Sequence record: PZ445511.1
Strand: one strand, 5' to 3'
DNA: 64,000 nucleotides
Origin: a phage
The notes under the pieces are model-generated. The model saw nothing but the letters and a program-made list of their open reading frames with translations, was not told the origin of the DNA and ran no database searches. The stretch's first letter is position 1; each line of letters opens with the position of its first letter. Positions 17,302-29,855 of this stretch are shown in pieces. The position numbers and the translations under genes were made by a program.

Positions 17302-17784
17302 ATGAAAAGGAAAGAATACCCTACTAAAGAAATACTTGAAAAATATTTTGTAGCTGATCCTGATAATGGGATACTATATAGGAAAACAAAGAAAGGTTTG
17401 AAAGAGTGTTGTGCCAATAATAAGAAATCACATCCAGATGTGGGATTTCAGGGCGACACCTATCAACTGCATGTCTTATTATTTATTATGTACTATGGAT
17501 ATAGGCCTGAAGAAGTAGATCATAAGGATACTAATCCTAGAAATAATAGGAAAAATAATCTAAGGGACGCCTCTAGATCGCAAAATAATGCGAATAGAAA
17601 CCAACAATGCAATAATACTTCTGGGTACAAAGGAGTAAGTTGGGAAGGCTCTTCCTGGAGATACCAAGTAAGACATGAAGGAAAAAATTACAGTAAAAGA
17701 GGGTTTAAAACTGCGGAAGAGGCTTTCGAGGCCTCTAAGATATTAAGAGAATCCTTACATAAAGAATTTACTAACTTTGGTTAG
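17302..17784 (+). CDS. HNH homing endonuclease (HNH plus AP2)
   Basis: 160 aa; YGYRPEEVDHKD..N..N and GYKGVSW motifs. Confidence 0.7.
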   Translation: MKRKEYPTKEILEKYFVADPDNGILYRKTKKGLKECCANNKKSHPDVGFQGDTYQLHVLLFIMYYGYRPEEVDHKDTNPRNNRKNNLRDASRSQNNANRNQQCNNTSGYKGVSWEGSSWRYQVRHEGKNYSKRGFKTAEEAFEASKILRESLHKEFTNFG

Positions 17785-18414
17785 TAATAGTGGGGTGCCG
17801 AAACCACTTATGTAACAACACTGCCGTCCTAGTATAATAGGTATTATTAGGGCTTCACCGCCTGAAGATGTGGGTTCGAGTCCCACGGTCGGAAAGAGTT
17901 GGATAACTGGTGCTTCTAATGGCGAAGCAATCGCAGGCAGTTGCGCACTGCCAAAACCACGCGGTAGTTGGTTCCAGGCTAACCAACCACTCTTGAAAAG
18001 TATATACTACGGTTTTGCTTGTTCAGGAAGCTTCGCATCGAAAATCGGAGGTGCGATTTTATCAGACCGCGTGGAGGACGTCTCTCCGTTAAGTGACGAA
18101 AAGTGGGACGATTCAGGTAGAGCTGGATATGGAACACCTATACATATGCGGAGTGCGCACAAAGCATATTGCGGTGGTACTAAACGAAATTAGGAGTCAT
18201 GACCTGCACAAGTTTAGTATGTCATAACCGATGTACATTCAGTACAAAAACCACTGAAGCTAAGATAGATAGTCACCTTGACTTAAACTGGAAGATATTG
18301 TCTGACGGAAGGGCTGCAGAGCTTAATCTGAGGGGGCTGACCCTACCTACCGTCGGGTATCTTTAAGAGTTCTTACGAGAACTCTTAAAGATACCTAAAC
18401 ATTAAGGAATACTG
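17785..18414 (+). ncRNA. structured non-coding region (T-arm-like element and 17-bp perfect hairpin); identity unresolved
   Basis: 630 bp without convincing ORF or promoter; gtgggttcgagtcccac at 17870-17886; hairpin 18357-18394. Confidence 0.3.
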
Positions 18415-22294: not shown

Positions 22295-22591
22295 ATGAAA
22301 CGCATTGTACTTGCATTGACTCTAGTATCTACTTCTGTATTTGCTGCTCCACAACAGGAACTTTGTCAAGTTCAAGTTTGTAATAAGCTAGAACGATTTA
22401 CTCTAGACATTTGGTCCCACATTAAAGATAATATGGGTGAACAGTGTTTTGATATTGTTCTGCCAAAAGAACAAGCTGTTCCTGGGGCTGTTCTCAGCTC
22501 AGAATCACGTTGGTGGCAAGGTTCTTCTATCAACCCAACTAAGAAGTCAGTGACACGTATCAAACAAGTATATCAGTGCAACGTTCAGTAA
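22295..22591 (+). CDS. secreted small protein
   Basis: 98 aa with signal peptide MKRIVLALTLVSTSVFA. Confidence 0.55.
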   Translation: MKRIVLALTLVSTSVFAAPQQELCQVQVCNKLERFTLDIWSHIKDNMGEQCFDIVLPKEQAVPGAVLSSESRWWQGSSINPTKKSVTRIKQVYQCNVQ

Positions 22592-22599
22592 AATTTCAC

Positions 22600-22628
22600 T
22601 TGCTTAATGCCGAAATTTTCTGTATAAT
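22600..22628 (+). promoter_or_regulatory. early promoter (TTGCTT-17-TATAAT)
   Basis: promoter family member. Confidence 0.7.
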
Positions 22629-22661
22629 ATATTCATAAATTTGGAAGATTAGGAACTATTT

Positions 22662-23171
22662 ATGTTAGACTATGAGTCTATACTTTATAGATTCCGTTTA
22701 GAAGATGGTGTACTGGTGTGGAATCCGCTCTCCGGAAACTCCAGAGAGGAGAAGATATTTAATACTAAGTTTGCCAATAAACCTGCGGGATCTTTGCACA
22801 AAAGCTCTGGGTATATCAGAGTTAACGTTGATCACCAAGATTACTTAGCTCATATCATAGTATTTATACTATGATATGGGTATAGGCCGGAAATGGTTGA
22901 TCATAAAGACTGCAATAAGTTAAATATACATCCTTTAAATTTAAGAGCAGCGGATAGTACCACTAATACTCATAATGCTAGTAAATCTTCTAGGAATACT
23001 AGCGGATTTAAGGGAGTATCCTACCACAAAGCATCTGGTCAGTGGCAGGGTAGAATAATGTTTAAAGGTAAGTCATACTCCGCAGGGCTGCACAGTACTC
23101 CTGAAGCAGCAAATGAAGCTCTAATTCAACTGAGAGAGAAACTTCATGGGGAATATGCCCGAAATAATTAA
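22662..23171 (+). pseudogene. HNH endonuclease interrupted by in-frame TGA (22872-22874)
   Basis: ORFs 22662..22874 and 22893..23171 are in the same frame and together align with intact HNH genes at 11687 and 17302. Confidence 0.6.
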
Positions 23172-23257
23172 GGAAGAATAGCATAACGGTATTGCAGCAG
23201 ATTGCTAATCTGTCGGTTTGAAACATAGCCTTGTGGGTTCGATTCCCACTTCTTCCG
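23172..23257 (+). tRNA. tRNA-Ser(GCU)
   Basis: type II fold with long variable arm, discriminator G, anticodon loop ttgctaa, CCA encoded; starts 1 nt after HNH stop. Confidence 0.7.
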
Positions 23258-23265
23258 CCAAATTT

Positions 23266-23340
23266 GGTTCTCAAGCTCATTTGGTATGAGCCGTCGCCTC
23301 ATAAGCGAAAGGTAGGTAGGTTCGAATCCTCCGGGAGCCA
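23266..23340 (+). tRNA. tRNA-Met/Ile(CAU)
   Basis: acceptor ggttctc/gggagcc, anticodon loop ctcataa, T-loop ttcgaat; one T-stem mismatch. Confidence 0.5.
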
Positions 23341-23360
23341 CCAGATAACTAGGAGACTTT

Positions 23361-23435
23361 ATGTCACGCTTTCACGAAATTAAGCAAGAACTAGAAGAAT
23401 GTATGTGTACTGAATGTTGGGGTTCTGGCACTTAA
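23361..23435 (+). CDS. possible Cys-rich micro-protein (24 aa)
   Basis: AGGAGA RBS 5 nt upstream of ATG; CMCTECWG motif. Confidence 0.25.
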   Translation: MSRFHEIKQELEECMCTECWGSGT

Positions 23436-23492
23436 TGTTCCAGTGACTGGATTCCCTGATTGGCTGCAAGGTTACGAACTCTAACAAAATTT

Positions 23493-23575
23493 GGATCTGT
23501 GGTGGAATTGGCAATACACACCATGCTTAAAACGTGGCGCTTAAATGATTGAGGGTTCGAGCCCCTCCAGATCCA
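23493..23575 (+). tRNA. tRNA-Leu(UAA)
   Basis: acceptor ggatctg/cagatcc, anticodon loop cttaaaa, long variable arm, discriminator A, CCA encoded. Confidence 0.7.
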
Positions 23576-23594
23576 CCAAATTAAGGAAGTAAAA

Positions 23595-23717
23595 ATGAAA
23601 TCTATTAAGAAAGCTATTCGTGAACTTATCCGTTGTCGCTTCCATAACATCAAGGCTTCAACTAATGGTACTACTTACGATCGCTATGATCCTAAGTTTG
23701 GCTTACATTCTAAATAA
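23595..23717 (+). CDS. hypothetical small basic protein (40 aa)
   Basis: AAGGAAG RBS; separate frame from ORF track 23620..23937. Confidence 0.35.
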   Translation: MKSIKKAIRELIRCRFHNIKASTNGTTYDRYDPKFGLHSK

Positions 23718-23730
23718 CTGGAGAAAACAA

Positions 23731-23937
23731 ATGGCTAATCCTGAAATTACGGCACAACGTTTTATGCTGAAAGGAATTATTGCTGAAGCAGGCGTGACAC
23801 AAGAAGTGGAAGATTTCCATAAGCAGTTCCTAAATATTCTCACTCAAGCCAAAGAGCTAGGAGAGAAAGAACATGGCGCGGCTATTATGGCAATCACATT
23901 GGTTGGGCTTGATCTGGCAGAAGAATCAGGAGTTTAA
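23731..23937 (+). CDS. hypothetical protein (68 aa)
   Basis: in-frame ATG with GGAG RBS inside ORF 23620..23937. Confidence 0.5.
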   Translation: MANPEITAQRFMLKGIIAEAGVTQEVEDFHKQFLNILTQAKELGEKEHGAAIMAITLVGLDLAEESGV

Positions 23938-23967
23938 CTTCTCCAAGCAGAAATTTTAAAAATGTAC

Positions 23968-23997
23968 TTGCTTTTTACTTAAGATTTCTGCTATAAT
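23968..23997 (+). promoter_or_regulatory. early promoter (TTGCTT-18-TATAAT)
   Basis: promoter family member. Confidence 0.65.
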
Positions 23998-24026
23998 AGT
24001 TATATAAGTTGATGAGAGGAATCAGA

Positions 24027-24302
24027 ATGTTAAAACGTTTTGCAGCAACTGGTATTGAAAGCTCAGTATGTAAATCCTGGGGTGGTTGGGAAGGTGAGAT
24101 CGAGTGGCTTTATTTCTACAATGTAGAACTTCTTCCAGAGATCAAAGCTCAATGTATTGAGGCTGGTATGGCTCCTGATGCTACGGCTGATGTTGAAATC
24201 AGCATGAATAAGCTAGAGGGTCGAGTAGTCACTGTTACTGATGAAGGTGAAGAGGTATTCGAACTTCCATTCACTTTGAAAGTCACTCCTTCATTTGATT
24301 AA
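24027..24302 (+). CDS. hypothetical protein
   Basis: ORF 24009..24302 (TTG); ATG 24027 with GAGAGGAA RBS. Confidence 0.5.
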   Translation: MLKRFAATGIESSVCKSWGGWEGEIEWLYFYNVELLPEIKAQCIEAGMAPDATADVEISMNKLEGRVVTVTDEGEEVFELPFTLKVTPSFD

Positions 24303-24310
24303 CTGATACA

Positions 24311-24351
24311 GCACTTGAGCAAGTTCTTTAAAATTTGACTTGCTCAAGTGC
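24311..24351. repeat. 14-bp perfect inverted repeat overlapping promoter -35
   Basis: gcacttgagcaagt / acttgctcaagtgc separated by 13 bp. Confidence 0.8.
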
Positions 24352-24369
24352 CTTAAAACTTGATATAAT
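24340..24369 (+). promoter_or_regulatory. promoter (TTGCTC-18-TATAAT) ahead of a tRNA block
   Basis: hexamers with 18-bp spacer; no large ORF before tRNA-Tyr. Confidence 0.6.
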
Positions 24370-24493
24370 AGTTACCTAATTTGGAAACATATCTGAATGA
24401 GAAGTAATTAAGCGAGTTGCTTTGAGGGATAAAGTCAGGATAGCCGGAAATATTCCACCTTGAGTTTAACCGACTTACTTTTCATTCAAATAT

Positions 24494-24571
24494 GGGGGAT
24501 TGGCTCAGTGGCGACGGCGCCTGGCTGTAGACCGGGTATATCACGCGGAGGTTCGAGTCCTCCATCCCCCA
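24494..24571 (+). tRNA. tRNA-Tyr(GUA)
   Basis: acceptor gggggat/atccccc, anticodon loop ctgtaga, 10-nt variable region, discriminator A, CCA. Confidence 0.6.
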
Positions 24572-24582
24572 CCAAAATTAAT

Positions 24583-24654
24583 GCACCTATCGTCTAATGG
24601 TTAGGACATCAGGATTTCAATCTGAGAATTGAACTCCGATTCTCCGTGGGTGTG
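24583..24654 (+). tRNA. tRNA-like, probable tRNA-Glu(UUC) with degenerate T-arm
   Basis: acceptor gcaccta/tgggtgt with G-U pairs, good D and anticodon stems, loop atttcaa, CCA encoded. Confidence 0.4.
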
Positions 24655-24666
24655 CCAATTAATAAT

Positions 24667-24734
24667 TGGGGTACACATAGGTTGCTAGTGGGCCTCCAAA
24701 ACCCATGAAAAGGTTTCGAATACCTTTACCCCTG
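24667..24734 (+). tRNA. tRNA-Trp(CCA)-like with shortened D-arm
   Basis: 68 nt; anticodon loop ctccaaa, T-loop ttcgaat, 1-72 U-U mismatch; CCA encoded. Confidence 0.4.
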
Positions 24735-24743
24735 CCAATATTT

Positions 24744-24815
24744 GCACCTTTAGCTGAGATGGATTAGCGCTTGCCTGAAGAGCTTGAGAGGTTCGTTCAA
24801 TTCGAACAGGGTGCA
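24744..24815 (+). tRNA. tRNA-Phe(GAA)-like
   Basis: acceptor gcacctt/agggtgc, anticodon loop ctgaaga, two U-U mismatches in anticodon stem, CCA encoded. Confidence 0.5.
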
Positions 24816-24835
24816 CCAATTTGAAGGAGATGCTG

Positions 24836-25108
24836 ATGCATCCTGAAAACTTCTTTATATACTGTACTAGTCCTTTGCTTAAACGCCGGATTAATAAAGT
24901 ATATCACTACAGAGCTAGTCAACAGCCTTATGTTTATGATTCTAGTGGAGATCATATTCCACTTGAGCAACTAGGGACTGATTATATGGTTTTGAAGCAC
25001 TTTAATGAGGCGAAGATCTCTAGCGTTCATAACCGACAAAACTCTAAAACGTGGTGGCATAAGAAGCGTAAGAAAGGCATCAAATTTCTTAAAAATGTAG
25101 TTGCTTAA
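24836..25108 (+). CDS. hypothetical basic protein
   Basis: ORF 24821..25108 (TTG); ATG 24836 with AGGAG RBS. Confidence 0.5.
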   Translation: MHPENFFIYCTSPLLKRRINKVYHYRASQQPYVYDSSGDHIPLEQLGTDYMVLKHFNEAKISSVHNRQNSKTWWHKKRKKGIKFLKNVVA

Positions 25109-25129
25109 ATCCTTAAAGTTCTGTATAAT
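25101..25129 (+). promoter_or_regulatory. early promoter (TTGCTT-17-TATAAT)
   Basis: promoter family member, overlaps 3' end of upstream ORF. Confidence 0.7.
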
Positions 25130-25157
25130 TATTACATAAATTGAACTGGAGAACTAG

Positions 25158-25346
25158 ATGAAAGCACCTAAACCGAAATTAGTTAAGTTCGACTGCTGTG
25201 ATACTGAAATCTTATTTACTAAGTTTGGTGAATTTAAGATGTGTGAATGTGGAACATGTGGTTACGATCATGGTGATGGATATTATTGCAGAACCCTAGG
25301 GCCTTCTGAACTAATCCACTTCTCATGGCCGGAAAGTAAAGAATAA
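25158..25346 (+). CDS. Cys-rich small protein (putative zinc ribbon)
   Basis: 62 aa; CC..C.C..C..C pattern. Confidence 0.5.
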   Translation: MKAPKPKLVKFDCCDTEILFTKFGEFKMCECGTCGYDHGDGYYCRTLGPSELIHFSWPESKE

Positions 25347-25348
25347 TA

Positions 25349-25421
25349 CGACCGTTGGCTGAATGGCTTAGGCGGAGGCCTGCAAAACCTCCTTATGTGA
25401 GTTCGAATCTCATGCGGTCGT
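25349..25421 (+). tRNA. tRNA-Cys(GCA)
   Basis: acceptor cgaccgt/gcggtcg, anticodon loop ctgcaaa, T-loop ttcgaat, CCA encoded. Confidence 0.6.
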
Positions 25422-25426
25422 CCAAT

Positions 25427-25567
25427 TTGCTGAAAGAATTGTTAAATCAATTCAGGCACGCGTAGGAACACTGCCTCAGTAATTGAAAGATGAGGCACGG
25501 TTTGGAGAGGTATGCCGCTACACGCTACGGTGCTAACTCCGTCTAGGTGAAAATCCTAGTCAGCAAT
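25427..25567 (+). ncRNA. 141-nt tRNA-like RNA (acceptor-like stem plus T-arm-like hairpin around a long insert)
   Basis: ttgctga...tcagcaa terminal pairing; ctagg-tgaaaat-cctag hairpin; internal hairpins; not a canonical tRNA. Confidence 0.3.
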
Positions 25568-25576
25568 ATAAATTTA

Positions 25577-25656
25577 GGGTCGTTAGCCAAGCGGTTTGGC
25601 GGTGGACTGTTAATCCATGTCGAAAGACAACGTAGGTTCGAATCCTACACGGCCCG
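25577..25656 (+). tRNA. tRNA with GUU (Asn) anticodon on a type-II-like body
   Basis: acceptor gggtcgt/acggccc, 3-bp D stem, anticodon stem gtgga/tccat, loop ctgttaa, 13-nt variable arm, discriminator G, CCA. Confidence 0.5.
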
Positions 25657-25762
25657 CCATATTCTATGTAGGATTAAGTAAACCGGTAGCCAACCAGCTA
25701 TCATTACTGATATCGAATTCAGTCACAGATACCATTTTTCACTAACAACTGAGGAAATAGAT

Positions 25763-25948
25763 ATGACAACTCGTGCAATTGCTCGACTAGAAGCTGATCG
25801 TGATAATCTGATTAATAATATTAAGGTTCGTGGTAATATTATTAAGGCTCTGAAAGCTGAACTTCTTGAAGAACTTCAAGGTCAAGTAGAGCGTCGTGAA
25901 GCTCTAAAAGAGGTTGAGGAAGCTATCGAAAAACTCAAGGCTGAATAA
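25763..25948 (+). CDS. hypothetical coiled-coil protein
   Basis: 61 aa with GAGGAAA RBS. Confidence 0.45.
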   Translation: MTTRAIARLEADRDNLINNIKVRGNIIKALKAELLEELQGQVERREALKEVEEAIEKLKAE

Positions 25949-25951
25949 ATT

Positions 25952-26533
25952 ATGCACGGAATATCCTTACCCATTCCAGGGTTTGAGGAGTACTTAGTAA
26001 GTTTGGATGGGTTAGTATTTAGTATCAAATCAAACAAAATACTAACCCCAATAACCAGTAATTATGGATACTTATCTATACGTCTCCATAAAAATGGTCA
26101 ACAGAGAAATACCGGTGTACATAGGATTTTAGCATGTGCATTTAAGAAATTACCAAGTCTAGACTCTGAACTAGAAGTTGACCATATTAACACAGACATT
26201 ACTTATTGGGGTCTTAATAACTTACAAGTGCTCACAAAAGAGCAGCATCTAGAAAAGACTTTAAAAGATAAAGGATTTAGTAAACTAAATCATGATAATT
26301 GTTGTAAGGATTGTGGTAAAGCTATTTCTTTAAAAGCTGAAAAATGTCAGGAGTGCTCTTCACATAAACCAAAAGATATCTCTATAACTAAAGAAATAAT
26401 CGAGGTTACAGTAAGAGAGCTAGGCTGGTCAGGTGCAGGGAGAAAGTTAAATTATTCAGATAATGGGTTGCGTAAAAGATACACTTCTTTAGGAGGCAAT
26501 CCTAAAGAACTTAAAAAGTTAAAGGTACTATAG
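25952..26533 (+). CDS. HNH homing endonuclease with C-terminal Cys4 zinc ribbon
   Basis: 193 aa; EVDHIN..N motif; CKDCG...CQEC; 3' end overlaps tRNA-Asp by 10 nt. Confidence 0.7.
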   Translation: MHGISLPIPGFEEYLVSLDGLVFSIKSNKILTPITSNYGYLSIRLHKNGQQRNTGVHRILACAFKKLPSLDSELEVDHINTDITYWGLNNLQVLTKEQHLEKTLKDKGFSKLNHDNCCKDCGKAISLKAEKCQECSSHKPKDISITKEIIEVTVRELGWSGAGRKLNYSDNGLRKRYTSLGGNPKELKKLKVL

Positions 26534-26595
26534 TCTAACGGTTAGGATACTCCCCTGTCACGGGAGAGGTAGGGTTTCGATTACCCTTAGTACCG
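26524..26595 (+). tRNA. tRNA-Asp(GUC)
   Basis: acceptor ggtacta/tagtacc, anticodon stem ctccc/gggag, loop ctgtcac, T-loop ttcgatt, CCA. Confidence 0.75.
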
Positions 26596-26604
26596 CCAAA
26601 TTAT

Positions 26605-26678
26605 ACATCCATAGCTCAACTGGTCAGAGCTACCGCCTCTTAAGCGGAGGGTTGAAGGTTCAAGTCCTTCTGGGAGTA
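26605..26678 (+). tRNA. tRNA-Lys(CUU)
   Basis: D-stem gctc/gagc, anticodon loop ctcttaa, T-arm gaagg-ttcaagt-ccttc, CCA; one acceptor mismatch. Confidence 0.5.
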
Positions 26679-26686
26679 CCAAACAA

Positions 26687-26880
26687 ATAGAGTAAAGGCT
26701 ACAGTAGGTGCACCCTTACGGACTGCTACACCGGACTCTATTCATTAACAAACATTCTAGCGTGGTGGAGAGGGGACACCAGCTGTGCGAGGGTAGAAGC
26801 TTGTTCGATTCAAGTGAAAGAATGGTTCTCGTAAATCCGCAGCAGTGATAGTAGGTTCAAGTCCTACCTAGATTGACTTA
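26687..26880 (+). ncRNA. unresolved tRNA-like RNAs (two T-arm-like hairpins, one 66-nt acceptor-paired element)
   Basis: atagagt...actctat pairing; T-arm-like gcttg-ttcgatt-caagt and gtagg-ttcaagt-cctac without matching acceptors. Confidence 0.3.
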
Positions 26881-26884
26881 TTAT

Positions 26885-26955
26885 GCGTTCGTAGTTAAAA
26901 GGTATAATTTTTGGTTGCCAACCAGAAGTTGAGGGTTCGATTCCCTCCGACCGCA
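26885..26955 (+). tRNA. tRNA-Gly(GCC)
   Basis: anticodon stem tttgg/ccaga, loop ttgccaa, T-arm gaggg-ttcgatt-ccctc, CCA. Confidence 0.6.
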
Positions 26956-26959
26956 CCAA

Positions 26960-27180
26960 ATTTAGGGTTCTGCTTCCTAGAGAACGGACTCCTAGATAAA
27001 CAAGGCGATGAGTTTCCGGCCGGTTCTAGTCGCTGAAAATCCTCCCGACCAGGTAGGTGTAGGTAAACGAAAGTTTACTTATTGAGTAGGTTCCGATAGA
27101 TCGGCGGATCTATTCTGGCATTTAAGAGAAGTCTCGCAAACTTCTTTGTCAGCAGAGCGTTTGAAGCGTGAGGTGGCCTA
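26960..27180 (+). ncRNA. non-coding tRNA-cluster spacer with hairpins, candidate small RNA
   Basis: 220 nt, no ORF or canonical tRNA; gtcgctgaaaatcctcccgacc element resembles the T-arm-like hairpin of the 25427 element. Confidence 0.25.
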
Positions 27181-27209
27181 CACAATAAGTAAATTTATTA
27201 AAAACTCAT

Positions 27210-27238
27210 TTGCTATTTCACTTAATTCTCTTTATAAT
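27210..27238 (+). promoter_or_regulatory. early promoter (TTGCTA-17-TATAAT) for a tRNA block
   Basis: promoter family member directly upstream of tRNA-Pro. Confidence 0.7.
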
Positions 27239-27270
27239 ATATCTTATAAAGTGAGTTAACAAAGAATATT

Positions 27271-27345
27271 CTCCGTGTAGCTCAGTTTGGCCAGAGCGTT
27301 CCGTTTGGGGCGGTAGGGTCGGGGGTTCAAATCCTCCCACGGAGA
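27271..27345 (+). tRNA. tRNA-Pro(UGG)
   Basis: acceptor ctccgtg/cacggag perfect, anticodon loop tttgggg, T-loop ttcaaat, CCA. Confidence 0.65.
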
Positions 27346-27354
27346 CCAAACAAT

Positions 27355-27429
27355 TGCGGGTTAGATCTCTGGTAGAGATCGCTAGTCTCATAAGCTAGAA
27401 AGAGGTAGGTTCGATTCCTACACCCGCTT
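27355..27429 (+). tRNA. tRNA-Met/Ile(CAU), 1-72 unpaired
   Basis: anticodon stem ctagt/gctag, loop ctcataa, T-arm gtagg-ttcgatt-cctac, CCA; position 1-72 U-U. Confidence 0.5.
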
Positions 27430-27451
27430 CCAATTTAATAGAGGATACGAA

Positions 27452-27616
27452 ATGAAATTATTTCGATTGGTAGTAAGTGATAGACGGTCTAGCAAAGATC
27501 GTTCGAAGTATACCTTAGCCCATTATGGGAAAGATGAAAATGAAGTAATGGCTGAATTTGGTATTAATCATCGCTACTTAGAAGTTTACTCTATTAAGGA
27601 AGTTTATCCGTATTAA
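27452..27616 (+). CDS. hypothetical small protein (54 aa)
   Basis: GAGGA RBS 6 nt before ATG; stop abuts tRNA-Lys. Confidence 0.4.
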   Translation: MKLFRLVVSDRRSSKDRSKYTLAHYGKDENEVMAEFGINHRYLEVYSIKEVYPY

Positions 27617-27691
27617 GGGTCGTTAGCTCAATTGGTTAGTAGCACTTGCCTTTTAAGCAATAGGTTGAAGGTTCGAGTCCTTCACGACCCA
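27617..27691 (+). tRNA. tRNA-Lys(UUU)
   Basis: acceptor gggtcgt/acgaccc perfect, anticodon loop cttttaa, T-arm gaagg-ttcgagt-ccttc, CCA. Confidence 0.7.
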
Positions 27692-27703
27692 CCAAATTAC
27701 TTT

Positions 27704-27774
27704 GCTCGGTTAGTTTAATGGGAGAACCCCGTCTTTACACGGCGGTTGCGATAGTTCGATTCTATCACCGAGTA
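27704..27774 (+). tRNA. tRNA-Val(UAC)
   Basis: anticodon stem ccgtc/ggcgg, loop tttacac, T-arm gatag-ttcgatt-ctatc, CCA. Confidence 0.7.
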
Positions 27775-27802
27775 CCAATTAACTCAAAATAAGGAATTGC
27801 AA

Positions 27803-28156
27803 ATGCAATTATCAAGCAAGATTCAAGGCTATTTTGGTCATGTAACAATGGAGTTCGCTATCTCTAAAGGTTGGGATTTCGAGCAAGATCTAGCTGAGTT
27901 CTACAAAGATATTGATCTGAACGTACCATACATGGGACTCTCCACTGGTCAAGAGATCACAGAAGGCGATGTGTTCAAGGCAAGTCAAGGTGAGGTAACA
28001 CCTAATTTTGCCAAGTTCTGGTTAGGACTTACTTTGAAGGAAGATGCACCAGAGGATGGTGTGGTTATGCAGAGTATGCACTCTGGAAGCTCTGATTACC
28101 TTTTCGTTAGCGACGTTAAGGAACTACAAGAAATCGCTAAAAATGTACTTGCTTGA
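27803..28156 (+). CDS. hypothetical protein
   Basis: ORF 27797..28156; ATG 27803 with AAGGA RBS; stop overlaps next promoter -35. Confidence 0.55.
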   Translation: MQLSSKIQGYFGHVTMEFAISKGWDFEQDLAEFYKDIDLNVPYMGLSTGQEITEGDVFKASQGEVTPNFAKFWLGLTLKEDAPEDGVVMQSMHSGSSDYLFVSDVKELQEIAKNVLA

Positions 28157-28177
28157 TGCTTAATTTCTTGTTATAAT
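28149..28177 (+). promoter_or_regulatory. early promoter (TTGCTT-17-TATAAT) for a tRNA block
   Basis: promoter family member. Confidence 0.7.
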
Positions 28178-28179
28178 AT

Positions 28180-28439
28180 TTATATAAATTGATGAGGAGA
28201 AATCCTCATCAAAGTTCACTAAGGTATTAGCTCGACCTAGGGCTGGCTGCCAAAAAGCACAATTGCAATTAGACCCCTAATGGCGGGGGATACTTTGCAA
28301 TAAGTTCTAGATTAGTCCACTAGATTCAGTGGCAACTGAATAGTGTATCGGGTTTGTGAAGAGCGGTTATCCTCTACTGGCTAATGTCTGAGGGTAATAC
28401 GCACACCGAGCTAATAGCCTTAGTAAACTTAAAGATTTT
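28180..28439 (+). ncRNA. 260-nt structured leader or small RNA ahead of the tRNA-Ala pair
   Basis: hairpins gatgagga-gaaa-tcctcatc (28191-28210) and ccact-agattc-agtgg; no ORF. Confidence 0.3.
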
Positions 28440-28515
28440 GGGGAATGGGTCTGCTTGGAGTGGACACCTCGCTTGCACCGAGGATATCAGAAGAGTTCGA
28501 ATCTCTTATTCTCCA
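28440..28515 (+). tRNA. tRNA-Ala(UGC)-like
   Basis: G3-U70 pair, anticodon stem cctcg/cgagg, loop cttgcac, T-arm aagag-ttcgaat-ctctt, CCA; atypical D and variable lengths. Confidence 0.5.
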
Positions 28516-28523
28516 CCAAATTC

Positions 28524-28596
28524 GGGGTCATAGGTTATTTGGTTAAACTTACTGCCTTGCAAGCAGTGGAACTCAGTTCAATTCTGAGTGACTCCA
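28524..28596 (+). tRNA. tRNA-Ala(UGC)
   Basis: G3-U70 pair, anticodon stem actgc/gcagt, loop cttgcaa, T-arm ctcag-ttcaatt-ctgag, CCA. Confidence 0.65.
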
Positions 28597-28618
28597 CCAA
28601 ACAAATTAAGGAAATAAT

Positions 28619-28837
28619 ATGGTATTCTTAGCAGCCTCTGTAGTTCTTGCAGCTTTAGCACTAGCTATCTATTTTAGAACTATTAAAGATTTAGCTAAAG
28701 AAAAGAAAACTTTCTTTACTGATTATTCTTGGGGCGCTCCATATAACGTCCGCTTTATCAGCTTAGAAGCTATGCTGATAATGGTATTCAGTGGCATAGG
28801 TTCCATTGTTGCAGGGTTACTATTTATTTCTAACTAA
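28619..28837 (+). CDS. small membrane protein
   Basis: 72 aa with two hydrophobic helices. Confidence 0.5.
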   Translation: MVFLAASVVLAALALAIYFRTIKDLAKEKKTFFTDYSWGAPYNVRFISLEAMLIMVFSGIGSIVAGLLFISN

Positions 28838-29530: not shown

Positions 29531-29667
29531 AATCTTGAAGTATGCCGGAATCGGTAGACGGGGCTTCCTAAAGGGCGTAAGGGGAACATCCACTCCTCAT
29601 AAGATACCCGAAAACGAGGCTGAGATAACTGGTCTATCTCGTGAAGGTTCGAGTCCTTCTGCTTCTT
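29531..29667 (+). ncRNA. tRNA-like RNA with canonical T-arm but no clean cloverleaf
   Basis: T-arm gaagg-ttcgagt-ccttc at 29643-29659 preceded by hairpin gagata-actggtc-tatctc; best acceptor partner aggggaa at 29580 has a mismatch; no CCA. Confidence 0.3.
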
Positions 29668-29669
29668 GA

Positions 29670-29855
29670 TATTCATCAATGGCTCAAAGTGTAACGGTGC
29701 TATTTGATGCTCTTAGTAAGACTTTCCCGACATGCGTTCGGGAGTAAGCTGCTAAGGCTAGAGTAGAAGAGTTTCGGAGAGCCGCCACAATTGAAGTCTT
29801 TAGAATGGGTATCGCCCTTTAGCCCCTCCGAAAGGGATAACTAGAGATTTCAATT
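29670..29855 (+). ncRNA. structured non-coding segment bounded by 11-bp inverted repeat
   Basis: ccacaattgaa (29776-29786) and ttcaattgtgg (29849-29859) flank a GC hairpin ccctttagcccctccgaaaggg. Confidence 0.25.

What the first reader, a model, noticed from the sequence alone, without database searches (positions are those of the whole stretch)
25427..25567. 141-nt tRNA-like RNA between tRNA-Cys and the GUU tRNA
A 7-bp acceptor-like pairing (TTGCTGA with TCAGCAA) and a T-arm-like hairpin (CTAGG-TGAAAAT-CCTAG) enclose about 110 nt of internal hairpins. That is too long for a tRNA and has no ORF. It could be an interrupted tRNA, a tRNA-derived regulatory RNA, or a processing or decoy element.
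Basis: seen in the sequence. Interest (0 to 1): 0.45.

Follow-up and report, generated by a model that had tools for sequence, protein, structure and literature searches.

The report
Unannotated tRNA-like RNA gene in phage
The 141 bases between two phage tRNA genes very likely encode a conserved, tRNA-shaped non-coding RNA whose anticodon arm is replaced by an 80-base branched arm; it belongs to the old, still unexplained class of "stable RNAs" in phage tRNA clusters but matches no described family.

Summary
Window 25427-25567 has a 7-bp acceptor-like helix directly abutting a 5-bp/7-nt T-arm-like hairpin. ARAGORN and Rfam call no tRNA or other family there.

The window is a T5-like Salmonella phage, identical here to S147. 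The element is conserved in about 220 phage records: Tequintavirus, Epseptimavirus, Sugarlandvirus, and the unrelated myovirus genus Mydovirus. It always sits flush between tRNA genes.

Sixteen base pairs show compensatory changes. Comparative data revise the interior. Positions 29-39 pair with 99-108, giving a true cloverleaf:
- acceptor stem;
- a D-like hairpin;
- an 80-nt arm ending in a three-way junction with an invariant core;
- an 8-nt variable loop;
- a T arm with loop UGAAAAU.

No CCA is encoded.

It is not a decodable or interrupted tRNA, not tmRNA, and not detectably homologous to T5 RNA1-3 or T4 RNA C/D. T5 and BF23, the phages whose stable RNAs were characterised, carry a T5orf172 ORF at this site. 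That probably explains why the element was never described.

Best reading: a tRNA-scaffolded RNA cut out by tRNA-processing enzymes, whose conserved arm binds a partner. The function is inferred, not shown. It is a new member of a known kind, of moderate interest.

The parts
25427..25567 (+). Whole tRNA-like RNA gene (141 nt; element positions 1-141)
   Evidence: Sequence. CM R1/R2 full-length matches of 135-183 bits in T5-like and Mydovirus phages. No Rfam or ARAGORN call.
25427..25433 (+). Acceptor-like stem, 5' strand (UUGCUGA), pairs with 25560-25566
   Evidence: 7 bp, 100% paired in 13 sequences, 4 pairs with compensatory changes.
25436..25453 (+). D-arm-position hairpin P2 (6 bp, loop UUAAAU; no GG)
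   Evidence: 5 of 6 pairs show compensatory changes.
25455..25465 (+). Long helix P3, 5' strand (GGCAC-G-CGUAG; G34 bulged), pairs with 25525-25534
   Evidence: 10 bp, 100% paired. Pairs 31/106 (CG to GC) and 32/105 (AU to UG) are compensated in Mydovirus. RNAalifold predicts it. It is the MFE in Shiner and Mydovirus, and constrained folding favours the long-helix fold for KPP2018 and Shiner. The rival P3 (29-32/87-90) is broken in Mydovirus and Shiner.
25473..25496 (+). Hairpin P4 (5 bp; loop of 12-14 nt in T5-likes, 7 nt in Mydovirus)
   Evidence: Compensatory changes at 3 pairs. The stem sequence differs in each clade.
25498..25517 (+). Hairpin P6 (CGGU...GCCG base, purine-rich loop GAGAGG)
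   Evidence: Pairs 72-75/88-91 are invariant. Pair 78/85 changes GU to UA in Mydovirus. Loop 79-81 may pair with 111-113 (80/112 AU to GC); this is tentative.
25512..25530 (+). Invariant core AUGCCGCUACACGCUACGG (3' strand of P6, a junction strand, and the 3' strand of the upper part of P3)
   Evidence: Identical in T5-like and Mydovirus copies, apart from single changes in NBEco001 and Shiner.
25535..25542 (+). Variable-loop equivalent (AACUCCGU, 8 nt)
   Evidence: Single-stranded in the comparative structure.
25543..25559 (+). T-arm-like hairpin (CUAGG-UGAAAAU-CCUAG)
   Evidence: 5 bp plus a 7-nt loop. Pair 119/131 changes AU to UA in Mydovirus. The loop is invariant apart from U128C in SP01.
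25560..25567 (+). Acceptor-like stem 3' strand (UCAGCAA) plus unpaired U at the discriminator position; no CCA follows
   Evidence: Sequence. The 3' trailer is AUAAAUUUA up to tRNA-Asn.
25349..25424 (+). Upstream tRNA-Cys(GCA), CCA encoded, 2 nt before the element
25577..25659 (+). Downstream tRNA-Asn(GUU). Its RNase P site would define the 3' trailer of the element.
   Evidence: The processing role is inferred.
25101..25129 (+). Candidate sigma-70 promoter (TTGCTT-17 nt-TATAAT) for the unit orf92 - tRNA-Cys - element - tRNA-Asn
   Evidence: Read in the sequence. It lies at the position of promoter P14b annotated in T5, BF23 and phage 5. The consensus scan did not list it because only 3 of 6 bases match in the -35 hexamer. 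Inferred.

Best explanation
This is a gene for a structured, roughly 141-nt tRNA-like non-coding RNA. It is a new sequence family within the class of 'stable RNAs' embedded in phage tRNA clusters.

The proposed mechanism has five steps, and each carries its own confidence.
1. The RNA is transcribed on the + strand as part of the polycistronic early transcript that also carries tRNA-Cys and tRNA-Asn.
2. Its 12-bp acceptor/T-arm stack (7 + 5 bp, with a U-x-x-x-A T loop) makes it a substrate for RNase P at U25427. RNase P cleavage of the downstream tRNA-Asn, followed by 3' exonuclease trimming, sets the 3' end. CCA might then be added, since none is encoded.
3. The RNA folds as a cloverleaf. The anticodon arm is replaced by an 80-nt arm: a 10-bp helix topped by a three-way junction with two hairpins and an almost invariant core. 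It cannot decode.
4. The tRNA-like half serves as a processing and stability scaffold. It may also serve as bait for tRNA-binding proteins.
5. The conserved arm is the working part. It most likely binds a host or phage protein, acting as a tRNA mimic or decoy in the phage-host conflict over tRNAs.

Steps 1 and 3 rest on sequence and comparative evidence. Step 2 follows from established RNase P substrate rules. Steps 4 and 5 are inference.

My confidence by step: real structured RNA gene about 0.9; tRNA-type processing about 0.7; protein-binding decoy function about 0.25-0.3.
For: Conservation and independent mobility:
- About 220 phage records hold the element at 88-100% identity.
- Seven Mydovirus (Vequintavirinae) records hold a copy about 75% identical.
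- Similarity stops at the element's borders. Its neighbours differ: Cys/Asn in the window, Asn then another tRNA-like RNA in Sugarlandvirus, Ser/Ser in Mydovirus.

Structure:
- 99.2% of cells pair, and 16 pairs change on both sides. Registers slid by 1-3 columns give 26-45% pairing.
- RNAalifold independently returns the same structure.
- The long-helix fold is the MFE in Shiner and Mydovirus. Constrained folding also favours it in KPP2018, and it lies within about 1.2 kcal/mol of the alternative in the other T5-likes.

tRNA likeness:
- With filters off, the next-best matches of model R2 are ordinary tRNAs at 10-16 bits.
- The element is flush with its neighbours: 2-8 nt after the upstream CCA and 6-10 nt before the next tRNA-like 5' end.

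Not coding: the 12-codon AUG...UGA frame loses its AUG in Shiner, and every difference from Mydovirus sits in a compensated stem position.

Accessory, transferable character: it is absent from T5 and BF23, where a T5orf172 ORF occupies the site, and truncated in NR01. The T5 tRNA region is a dispensable deletion hotspot where tRNAs act against tRNA-targeting defences (PMC12483538, PMC11464382, PMC10264068).
Against: - No transcript data exist for this element. The phages whose stable RNAs were mapped biochemically, T5 and BF23, lack it.
- The covariation comes from only three clades, so there are few independent events.
- The T loop lacks U55 and C56, and the D-like loop lacks GG, so a canonical tRNA elbow is not assured. 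RNase P recognition is inferred from minihelix substrates only.
- No partner protein, target or defence system is identified.
- Nothing distinguishes a decoy from other RNA functions.
- The two nearly isoenergetic folds leave the structure inside the arm partly unresolved.
Confidence: 0.55

Rival explanations
1. It is a processing or punctuation spacer. The tRNA-like fold only recruits RNase P or RNase E so that the neighbouring tRNAs are released efficiently, and the excised RNA has no function of its own.
For: It lies exactly between two tRNAs and has the RNase P-type acceptor/T minihelix.
Against: Most tRNAs in the same cluster are only 5-7 nt apart with no such spacer. T5 and BF23 keep tRNA-Cys and tRNA-Asn without it. 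A spacer does not need an invariant 19-nt core or a covarying 80-nt arm. The element keeps its sequence while its neighbours change.
Confidence: 0.1
2. It is a base-pairing or ribosome-directed regulator. An exposed conserved segment pairs with an mRNA or with the anti-Shine-Dalgarno end of 16S rRNA. Candidates are the purine-rich P6 loop (GAGAGG or GGGAGG, which is Shine-Dalgarno-like) and the CUACACG junction strand.
For: A GAGGU/GGAGG motif is conserved in the P6 loop in all clades.
Against: The window holds no complementary site for the invariant segments with up to 3 mismatches. E. coli genomes give no match (which is insensitive to short seeds). Purine-rich loops are common, and the same loop has a candidate intramolecular partner at 111-113.
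Confidence: 0.1
3. It is a decaying tRNA gene: a pseudogene scarred by an insertion, or a tRNA with an intron. It looks conserved only because the phages are closely related.
For: The cloverleaf outline, and the T arm GG-UGAAAAU-CC, which is three substitutions from GG-UUCGAAU-CC. T5 RNA1 in the same cluster looks like a tRNA-Leu with an enlarged anticodon region.
Against: Compensatory changes appear in every helix. The core is invariant between siphoviruses and myoviruses that share nothing else locally. The element is far better conserved than the flanking DNA between Epseptimavirus and Sugarlandvirus: BLAST matches stop at its borders. There is no anticodon loop and no known bacterial intron type of about 70 nt. 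ARAGORN and Rfam both fail to call it.
Confidence: 0.07
4. It is a tmRNA-like or peptide-coding element. The AUG at element position 86 opens a 12-codon frame (MPLHATVLTPSR) that ends at the UGA in the T loop.
For: A Shine-Dalgarno-like GAGG lies next to the AUG, and the frame length is kept in Mydovirus.
Against: The AUG is AAG in Shiner. The SD-AUG spacing is 0-1 nt. Three of four changed codons between clades are non-synonymous, and all changes are explained by stem covariation. There is no G3-U70 pair and no encoded CCA, and ARAGORN's tmRNA search is negative.
Confidence: 0.02
5. The conservation acts on DNA, for example as a homing-endonuclease recognition or recombination site in a region full of HNH and GIY-YIG-like genes. 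There is no RNA function.
For: Homing-endonuclease genes abound in the cluster, and a T5orf172 ORF replaces the element in T5 and BF23.
Against: A DNA target does not explain pair-preserving double substitutions across five helices.
Confidence: 0.04

Closest known systems
T5 / BF23 / phage 5 'tRNA-like stable RNAs' RNA1 (144 nt), RNA2 (125 nt) and RNA3 (73 nt), annotated as misc_RNA with unknown function in NC_005859, NC_042564 and AJ604531
   Same: They sit in the same tRNA gene region on the same strand. They have an acceptor-like stem plus T arm and an enlarged middle part instead of a normal anticodon arm, and their function is unknown. Homologues of all three lie in this window.
   Different: No sequence or covariance-model homology: R2 gives RNA1 7 bits, less than ordinary tRNAs score, and there is no BLAST match. 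RNA1 and RNA2 keep canonical T loops and GG-containing D loops, whereas this element has UGAAAAU and no GG. This element is absent from T5 and BF23 and is not annotated in any record examined.
Phage T4 RNA C (species 1, 139 nt) and RNA D (species 2, 119 nt)
   Same: They are small stable RNAs of similar size encoded at the end of a phage tRNA cluster on the same strand as the tRNAs. RNA C has a T-arm-like hairpin. Their function is still unknown (PMC3014915, PMC9697503).
   Different: Model R2 gives no match with filters off. T4 RNA C has a canonical GGGUUCGAAUCCC T arm and a different interior. Rfam has no family for either.
tmRNA (SsrA)
   Same: A tRNA-like acceptor/T-arm half with a large insertion where the anticodon arm would be. 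Its 5' end is made by RNase P.
   Different: There is no G3-U70 alanine identity pair (here G-C or A-U) and no encoded CCA. There is no conserved tag frame, the RNA is much smaller, and it lacks the tmRNA pseudoknots. It is not found by ARAGORN or Rfam.
Bacterial and phage Y RNA-like RNAs (YrlA) with a tRNA-like module
   Same: A non-decoding RNA that mimics part of a tRNA. Such RNAs occur in Salmonella and, from my own knowledge of Chen et al. 2014 (not read here), next to tRNAs in some phages.
   Different: The topology is reversed: in YrlA the 5' and 3' ends form the Ro-binding stem and the acceptor-like stem is closed. There is no Rfam match at E<=10.
Ordinary class I/II tRNAs
   Same: Cloverleaf order of helices, 7-bp acceptor stem, 5-bp T stem with a closing G-C pair, a 7-nt T loop with U at 54 and A at 58, and an unpaired discriminator.
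   Different: A8 instead of U8, no G18/G19, G55 and A56 instead of U55 and C56, and no anticodon stem-loop. The length is 141 nt. It scores below threshold in RF00005 and ARAGORN.

Membership tests
tRNA (RF00005) | Detected by tRNA covariance model or ARAGORN | tested here: not met
   No hit in 25427-25567 at gathering score or at E<=10.
tRNA (RF00005) | 7-bp acceptor stem stacked on a 5-bp T stem with a 7-nt loop | tested here: met
   1-7/134-140 and 117-121/129-133, all cells paired, with compensatory changes.
tRNA (RF00005) | 5-bp anticodon stem with a 7-nt loop (U33, anticodon, R37) | tested here: not met
   The position is occupied by an 80-nt arm (29-108) with a three-way junction.
tRNA (RF00005) | Conserved elbow and core nucleotides (U8, G18 G19, U55 C56) | tested here: not met
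   Read from the sequence: A8, D-like loop UUAAAU, T loop UGAAAAU.
tmRNA | G3-U70 pair, tag reading frame, detection by ARAGORN or Rfam | tested here: not met
   Pair 3/138 is G-C or A-U. The mini-frame is not conserved. There is no ARAGORN or Rfam call.
T5 RNA1 / RNA2 / RNA3 families | Sequence or structure homology to the annotated T5 RNAs | tested here: not met
   Their homologues lie elsewhere in the window: 29534-29680, 26753-26877 and 25662-25734. Model R2 with filters off gives RNA1 7 bits and nothing for RNA2 or RNA3 above tRNA level.
T4 RNA C / RNA D | Sequence or structure homology | tested here: not met
   No R1 or R2 match on the T4 locus at E<=10 other than tRNAs.
Class: stable tRNA-like RNAs of phage tRNA clusters (a class, not a homology family) | Encoded inside a phage tRNA cluster, on the tRNA strand, flush with neighbouring tRNAs, with a tRNA-like acceptor/T minihelix | tested here: met
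Class: stable tRNA-like RNAs of phage tRNA clusters (a class, not a homology family) | Accumulates as a discrete stable RNA in infected cells | not testable with these tools
   No expression data are available. T5 and BF23, which were studied biochemically, lack the element.
Class: stable tRNA-like RNAs of phage tRNA clusters (a class, not a homology family) | 5' end generated by RNase P | not testable with these tools
   Inferred from the 12-bp acceptor/T stack only.
Any Rfam 15 family | Match to a curated covariance model | tested here: not met
   The only matches in 25330-25680 at E<=10 are the two flanking tRNAs and two chance plastid hits on tRNA-Asn.

The most novel reading that the evidence does not exclude
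The element may be a horizontally mobile RNA counter-defence gene. In this reading it is a tRNA-scaffolded decoy matured by the host's own tRNA-processing enzymes. Its invariant three-way-junction arm, or its acceptor end after CCA addition, would trap a host tRNA-directed immune effector or toxin. Its transfer between unrelated sipho- and myoviruses of Enterobacteriaceae would reflect that autonomous benefit.
Probability: 0.2. Interest if true: 0.8.

Novelty: new member of a known kind. Interest (0 to 1): 0.5.

Why it matters
Small stable RNAs in the tRNA clusters of T4 and T5 have been known since the 1970s and still have no function. This element adds a well-defined, covariation-supported family that is absent from Rfam and unannotated in every genome record examined here, including the curated phage 5 record.

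It is widespread in T5-like phages used in therapy and biocontrol. It is also shared with an unrelated myovirus genus, which argues for a self-contained selectable function.

Natural presence/absence variants exist. T5 and BF23 carry an ORF instead, and NR01 carries a truncated copy. This gives a ready genetic handle for asking what such RNAs do, in a region now known to take part in conflicts over host tRNA cleavage.

Tried and rejected
- Two mis-parsed tRNAs, or a known RNA family. ARAGORN and Rfam (gathering score and E<=10) give nothing.
- Homology to T5 RNA1/2/2H and T4 RNA C. A MAFFT alignment showed short shared words such as GGAAC and GGUUGAGA. Covariance models R1 and R2 gave no support, even with filters off, so I dropped it.
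- The MFE-type interior (P3 29-32/87-90 plus hairpin 101-104/113-116). It is broken in Mydovirus and Shiner and has no compensations. I replaced it with the long helix 29-39/99-108.
- Wider distribution. Exact-block pattern scans of IMG/VR, metagenomes and GTDB genomes returned only T5-like and Mydovirus copies, plus chance hits in a coding gene family and one MAG. CM scans of tRNA clusters from Priunavirus, Phapecoctavirus, Winklervirus and Jiaodavirus were negative. An iterated BLAST from the Mydovirus copy found about the same number of records, with a near-identical organism and host breakdown.
- Host origin. There is no match in 5,426 E. coli genomes.
- Coding mini-ORF. Rejected because the AUG is lost in Shiner and the changes track the stems.
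- Antisense targets in the window. None.
- Own promoter or terminator. The scan lists one weak promoter-like match (9 of 12) at 25320-25347, just upstream of tRNA-Cys, no better than expected from shuffles, and no terminator at the element.
- Literature. Searches found no description of this element. They confirmed only that the T4 and T5 stable RNAs are of unknown function.

Full report
**What is there**

The window is a T5-like phage. Positions 25300-25700 are 100% identical to Salmonella phage S147 (Epseptimavirus, Demerecviridae). The finding lies in a cluster of 28 tRNA genes on the + strand.

The element, 25427-25567, begins 2 nt after the encoded CCA of tRNA-Cys (25349-25424). It ends 9 nt before tRNA-Asn (25577-25659).
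- TTGCTGA (25427-25433) pairs with TCAGCAA (25560-25566).
- CTAGG-TGAAAAT-CCTAG (25543-25559) directly abuts the 3' strand of that helix.

This gives the 7 + 5 bp stack of a tRNA. ARAGORN finds no tRNA or tmRNA inside it. Rfam 15 gives nothing at gathering score, and nothing at E<=10 when only 351 bases are searched. No real ORF is present. The fold is better than all 200 shuffles (z = -3.4).

**Is it conserved?**

BLAST finds the element in about 220 phage records:
- Tequintavirus and Epseptimavirus: 95-100% identity.
- Sugarlandvirus, Yersinia phage phiR2-01 and Enterobacter phage KKP_3711: 88-90%.
- Klebsiella myoviruses of genus Mydovirus (Vequintavirinae): the 3' half at 80%.

Starting from the Mydovirus copy recovers the T5-like copies at about 75% over positions 9-139.

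The similarity ends at the element's borders, and its neighbours change:
- tRNA-Cys and tRNA-Asn in the window;
- tRNA-Asn and a second small tRNA-like RNA in Sugarlandvirus and phiR2-01;
- two tRNA-Ser genes in Mydovirus.

In every case it starts 2-8 nt after an upstream CCA and ends 6-10 nt before the next tRNA-like 5' end. So it behaves like an independent tRNA-gene-sized cassette.

Scans of IMG/VR, metagenomes and GTDB genomes for its invariant blocks found no further lineages. E. coli genomes have no copy. Covariance-model scans of tRNA clusters from Priunavirus, Phapecoctavirus, Winklervirus, Jiaodavirus, T5 and T4 were negative.

**Structure**

Among 11 Demerecviridae sequences, the acceptor-like stem, hairpin P2 and hairpin P4 already show compensatory changes. 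Adding the two Mydovirus variants was decisive for the interior.

The single-sequence MFE pairs 29-32 with 87-90 and forms a hairpin at 101-116. The 29-32/87-90 helix is broken in Mydovirus and in Shiner and shows no compensation. The 101-104/113-116 hairpin stays paired but shows only one-sided changes.

The alternative is a 10-bp helix, 29-33/104-108 plus 35-39/99-103 with G34 bulged. The evidence for it:
- It is 100% paired.
- It shows CG-to-GC and AU-to-UG double changes.
- It is the MFE in Shiner and Mydovirus.
- Constrained folding favours it for KPP2018 and Shiner, and it is within about 1.2 kcal/mol of the MFE-type fold in the other T5-likes.
- RNAalifold returns it on the 13-sequence alignment, even though that alignment had been fitted to the other structure.

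Overall, 99.2% of cells pair and 16 pairs change on both sides. Slid registers give 26-45% pairing and 0-2 such pairs.

The resulting architecture is a cloverleaf:
- acceptor stem (7 bp);
- AA;
- a D-position hairpin (6 bp, loop UUAAAU);
- A;
- an 80-nt arm;
- an 8-nt variable loop, AACUCCGU;
- a T arm (5 bp, loop UGAAAAU);
- acceptor 3' strand and an unpaired U.

The arm is the 10-bp helix topped by a three-way junction. One branch is hairpin P4, which has a clade-specific stem and loop. The other is hairpin P6, which has a purine-rich loop (GAGAGG or GGGAGG).

The segment AUGCCGCUACACGCUACGG (25512-25530) is essentially invariant in all clades. A loop-to-variable-region contact (79-81 with 111-113) has one compensatory change and is only tentative.

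The covariation comes from three clades, so the number of independent events is small. This is the main limit on the structural claim.

**What it is not**

- Not a decodable tRNA. It has no anticodon stem-loop, A8, no G18/G19, and G55/A56 in the T loop.
- Not an intron-containing tRNA. Excising the insert leaves no plausible anticodon loop, and no bacterial intron class fits about 70 nt.
- Not tmRNA. Pair 3/70 is G-C or A-U, no CCA is encoded, and ARAGORN is negative.
- Not coding. The 12-codon frame from AUG (element position 86) to the UGA in the T loop loses its start in Shiner. Its differences between clades are exactly the compensated stem positions.
- Not homologous to the annotated T5 stable RNAs. 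Homologues of these lie elsewhere in the window: RNA3 25662-25734, RNA2 26753-26877, RNAIV 27086-27184, RNA2H 28225-28359, RNA1 29534-29680, RNAI 29681-29787 and RNAX 17781-18399. With filters off, model R2 scores T5 RNA1 at 7 bits, below ordinary tRNAs at 10-16 bits, and does not hit T4 RNA C or D.

That ordinary tRNAs are the best non-self matches is itself a measure of tRNA likeness.

**Why it was overlooked**

The stable RNAs of this region are annotated in T5, BF23 and phage 5, in records deposited as dedicated tRNA-gene-region or curated genome entries. From my own recollection, not checked here, the T5 and BF23 RNAs were defined biochemically by the Ksenzenko laboratory.

Both T5 and BF23 have a 172-aa ORF between tRNA-Cys and tRNA-Asn instead of this element. 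That ORF is T5.069 / trn 2.8, the name-giving member of the T5orf172 domain, PF10544. From my own knowledge, that domain is related to GIY-YIG nucleases.

Phage 5 does have the element (174.6 bits). Yet the carefully annotated record AJ604531 leaves the 152-nt gap blank. S147 and every other record I opened also leave the gap blank. Across the listed BLAST hits, the only features reported under the match are flanking tRNAs or occasional 'hypothetical protein' calls, never an RNA gene for the element.

In phage NR01 an ORF has overwritten the 5' half. The element is therefore dispensable and patchy, like much of this region. The region is a known deletion hotspot that can be lost in the laboratory (PMC12483538, citing Glukhov et al. 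2018).

**How it most likely works**

Shown or directly read:
- It lies on the tRNA strand.
- A promoter-like TTGCTT-17-TATAAT (25101-25129) sits at the place of T5 promoter P14b, upstream of orf92 and tRNA-Cys.
- The scan lists one weak promoter-like match (9 of 12) at 25320-25347, just upstream of tRNA-Cys, no better than expected from shuffles, and no terminator at the element.

So it should be part of the same polycistronic precursor as its neighbours.

From established knowledge of bacterial RNase P, which cleaves acceptor/T-stem minihelices, tmRNA and other tRNA-like substrates, the 12-bp stack with a U-x-x-x-A T loop should direct cleavage 5' of U25427. Cleavage at tRNA-Asn would leave a 9-10-nt A/U-rich trailer for 3' exonucleases. 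CCA addition is possible but not encoded.

Inferred: the tRNA-like half is a processing and stability scaffold, and possibly bait for tRNA-binding proteins. The invariant junction of the long arm is the functional surface, most likely for a protein.

Three observations point the same way:
- The element is accessory.
- It has moved between unrelated phages of Enterobacteriaceae.
- It sits in a region whose tRNAs counter tRNA-cleaving defences (PMC11464382, PMC10264068).

For these reasons I favour a decoy or tRNA-mimic role in that conflict, at only about 0.25-0.3 probability. The rivals are a processing spacer, a base-pairing or anti-SD-directed regulator, a decaying tRNA, a mini-ORF, and a DNA-level target. 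They are listed with the evidence against each.

**Comparison and novelty**

The element works like the T4 RNA C/D and T5 RNA1-3 class: small tRNA-like RNAs co-transcribed with phage tRNAs, with function unknown for decades (PMC3014915, PMC9697503). It is not a member of any of those families by the homology tests run here, and no Rfam family exists for it or for T4 RNA C/D.

I rate it a new member of a known kind. It is a real, previously unannotated RNA family with an unusually clear comparative structure and an interesting cross-family distribution. It has no expression data and no demonstrated function. Interest: 0.5.

Noticed in passing
window 25662-25734, 26753-26877, 27086-27184, 28225-28359, 29534-29680, 29681-29787, 17781-18399: Homologues of the T5 'stable RNAs' RNA3, RNA2, RNAIV, RNA2H, RNA1, RNAI and RNAX (72-92% identity) are present in the window. 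None is annotated in the stretch of the S147 record examined (L001, which covers window ~22300-28700, i.e. RNA3, RNA2, RNAIV and RNA2H); the remaining sites were not checked. T5 RNAIII has no match.
   Followed up: partly
window 24583-24654: Rfam calls a tRNA (35.2 bits) that ARAGORN does not, between tRNA-Tyr and tRNA-Phe. T5 has tRNA-Glu and tRNA-Trp at this place, so this may be a divergent or decaying copy.
   Followed up: no
window 17822-17895: ARAGORN calls a 'tRNA-SeC' with anticodon UCA (Rfam tRNA, 33 bits) inside the region homologous to T5 RNAX. It could be a UGA-reading or degenerate tRNA.
   Followed up: no
window 25577-25659: tRNA-Asn(GUU) is 83 nt long, with about 10 extra nucleotides in the variable region (Rfam alignment). 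That is unusual for a class I tRNA.
   Followed up: no
L005 554-622 (Klebsiella phage Shiner); same in L004 (phiR2-01): Directly after the element lies a second, roughly 69-nt tRNA-like RNA. It has a terminal helix UUAGGG.../...CCCUAA and a T-like hairpin with loop UGGAACU. Some records leave it unannotated or call it a small ORF.
   Followed up: no
L002 7007-7525 (T5.069); L042 1250-1768 (BF23 trn 2.8): In T5 and BF23 the site of the element is occupied by a 172-aa ORF with the T5orf172/MUG113 domain. The ORF overlaps the start of tRNA-Asn.
   Followed up: partly
L018 924-1076 (Salmonella phage NR01): A truncated copy: the 5' half of the element is replaced by the end of an inserted ORF. Only element positions from about 57 onward remain.
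   Followed up: partly
one search hit list (e.g. OR848495.1 'Listeria phage LM 4-14-1', 5.7 kb): Records labelled as Listeria and Campylobacter phages carry this T5-like sequence; the one listed (OR848495.1) is 98.7% identical. They are probably contaminant or mislabelled fragments.
   Followed up: no
window 25158-25346: The 62-aa ORF just upstream of tRNA-Cys (S147 orf92) is cysteine-rich (CC...CxC...CxxC). It belongs to a phage-only family of unknown function (phrog_7042) and has a weak match to DUF7695.
   Followed up: partly
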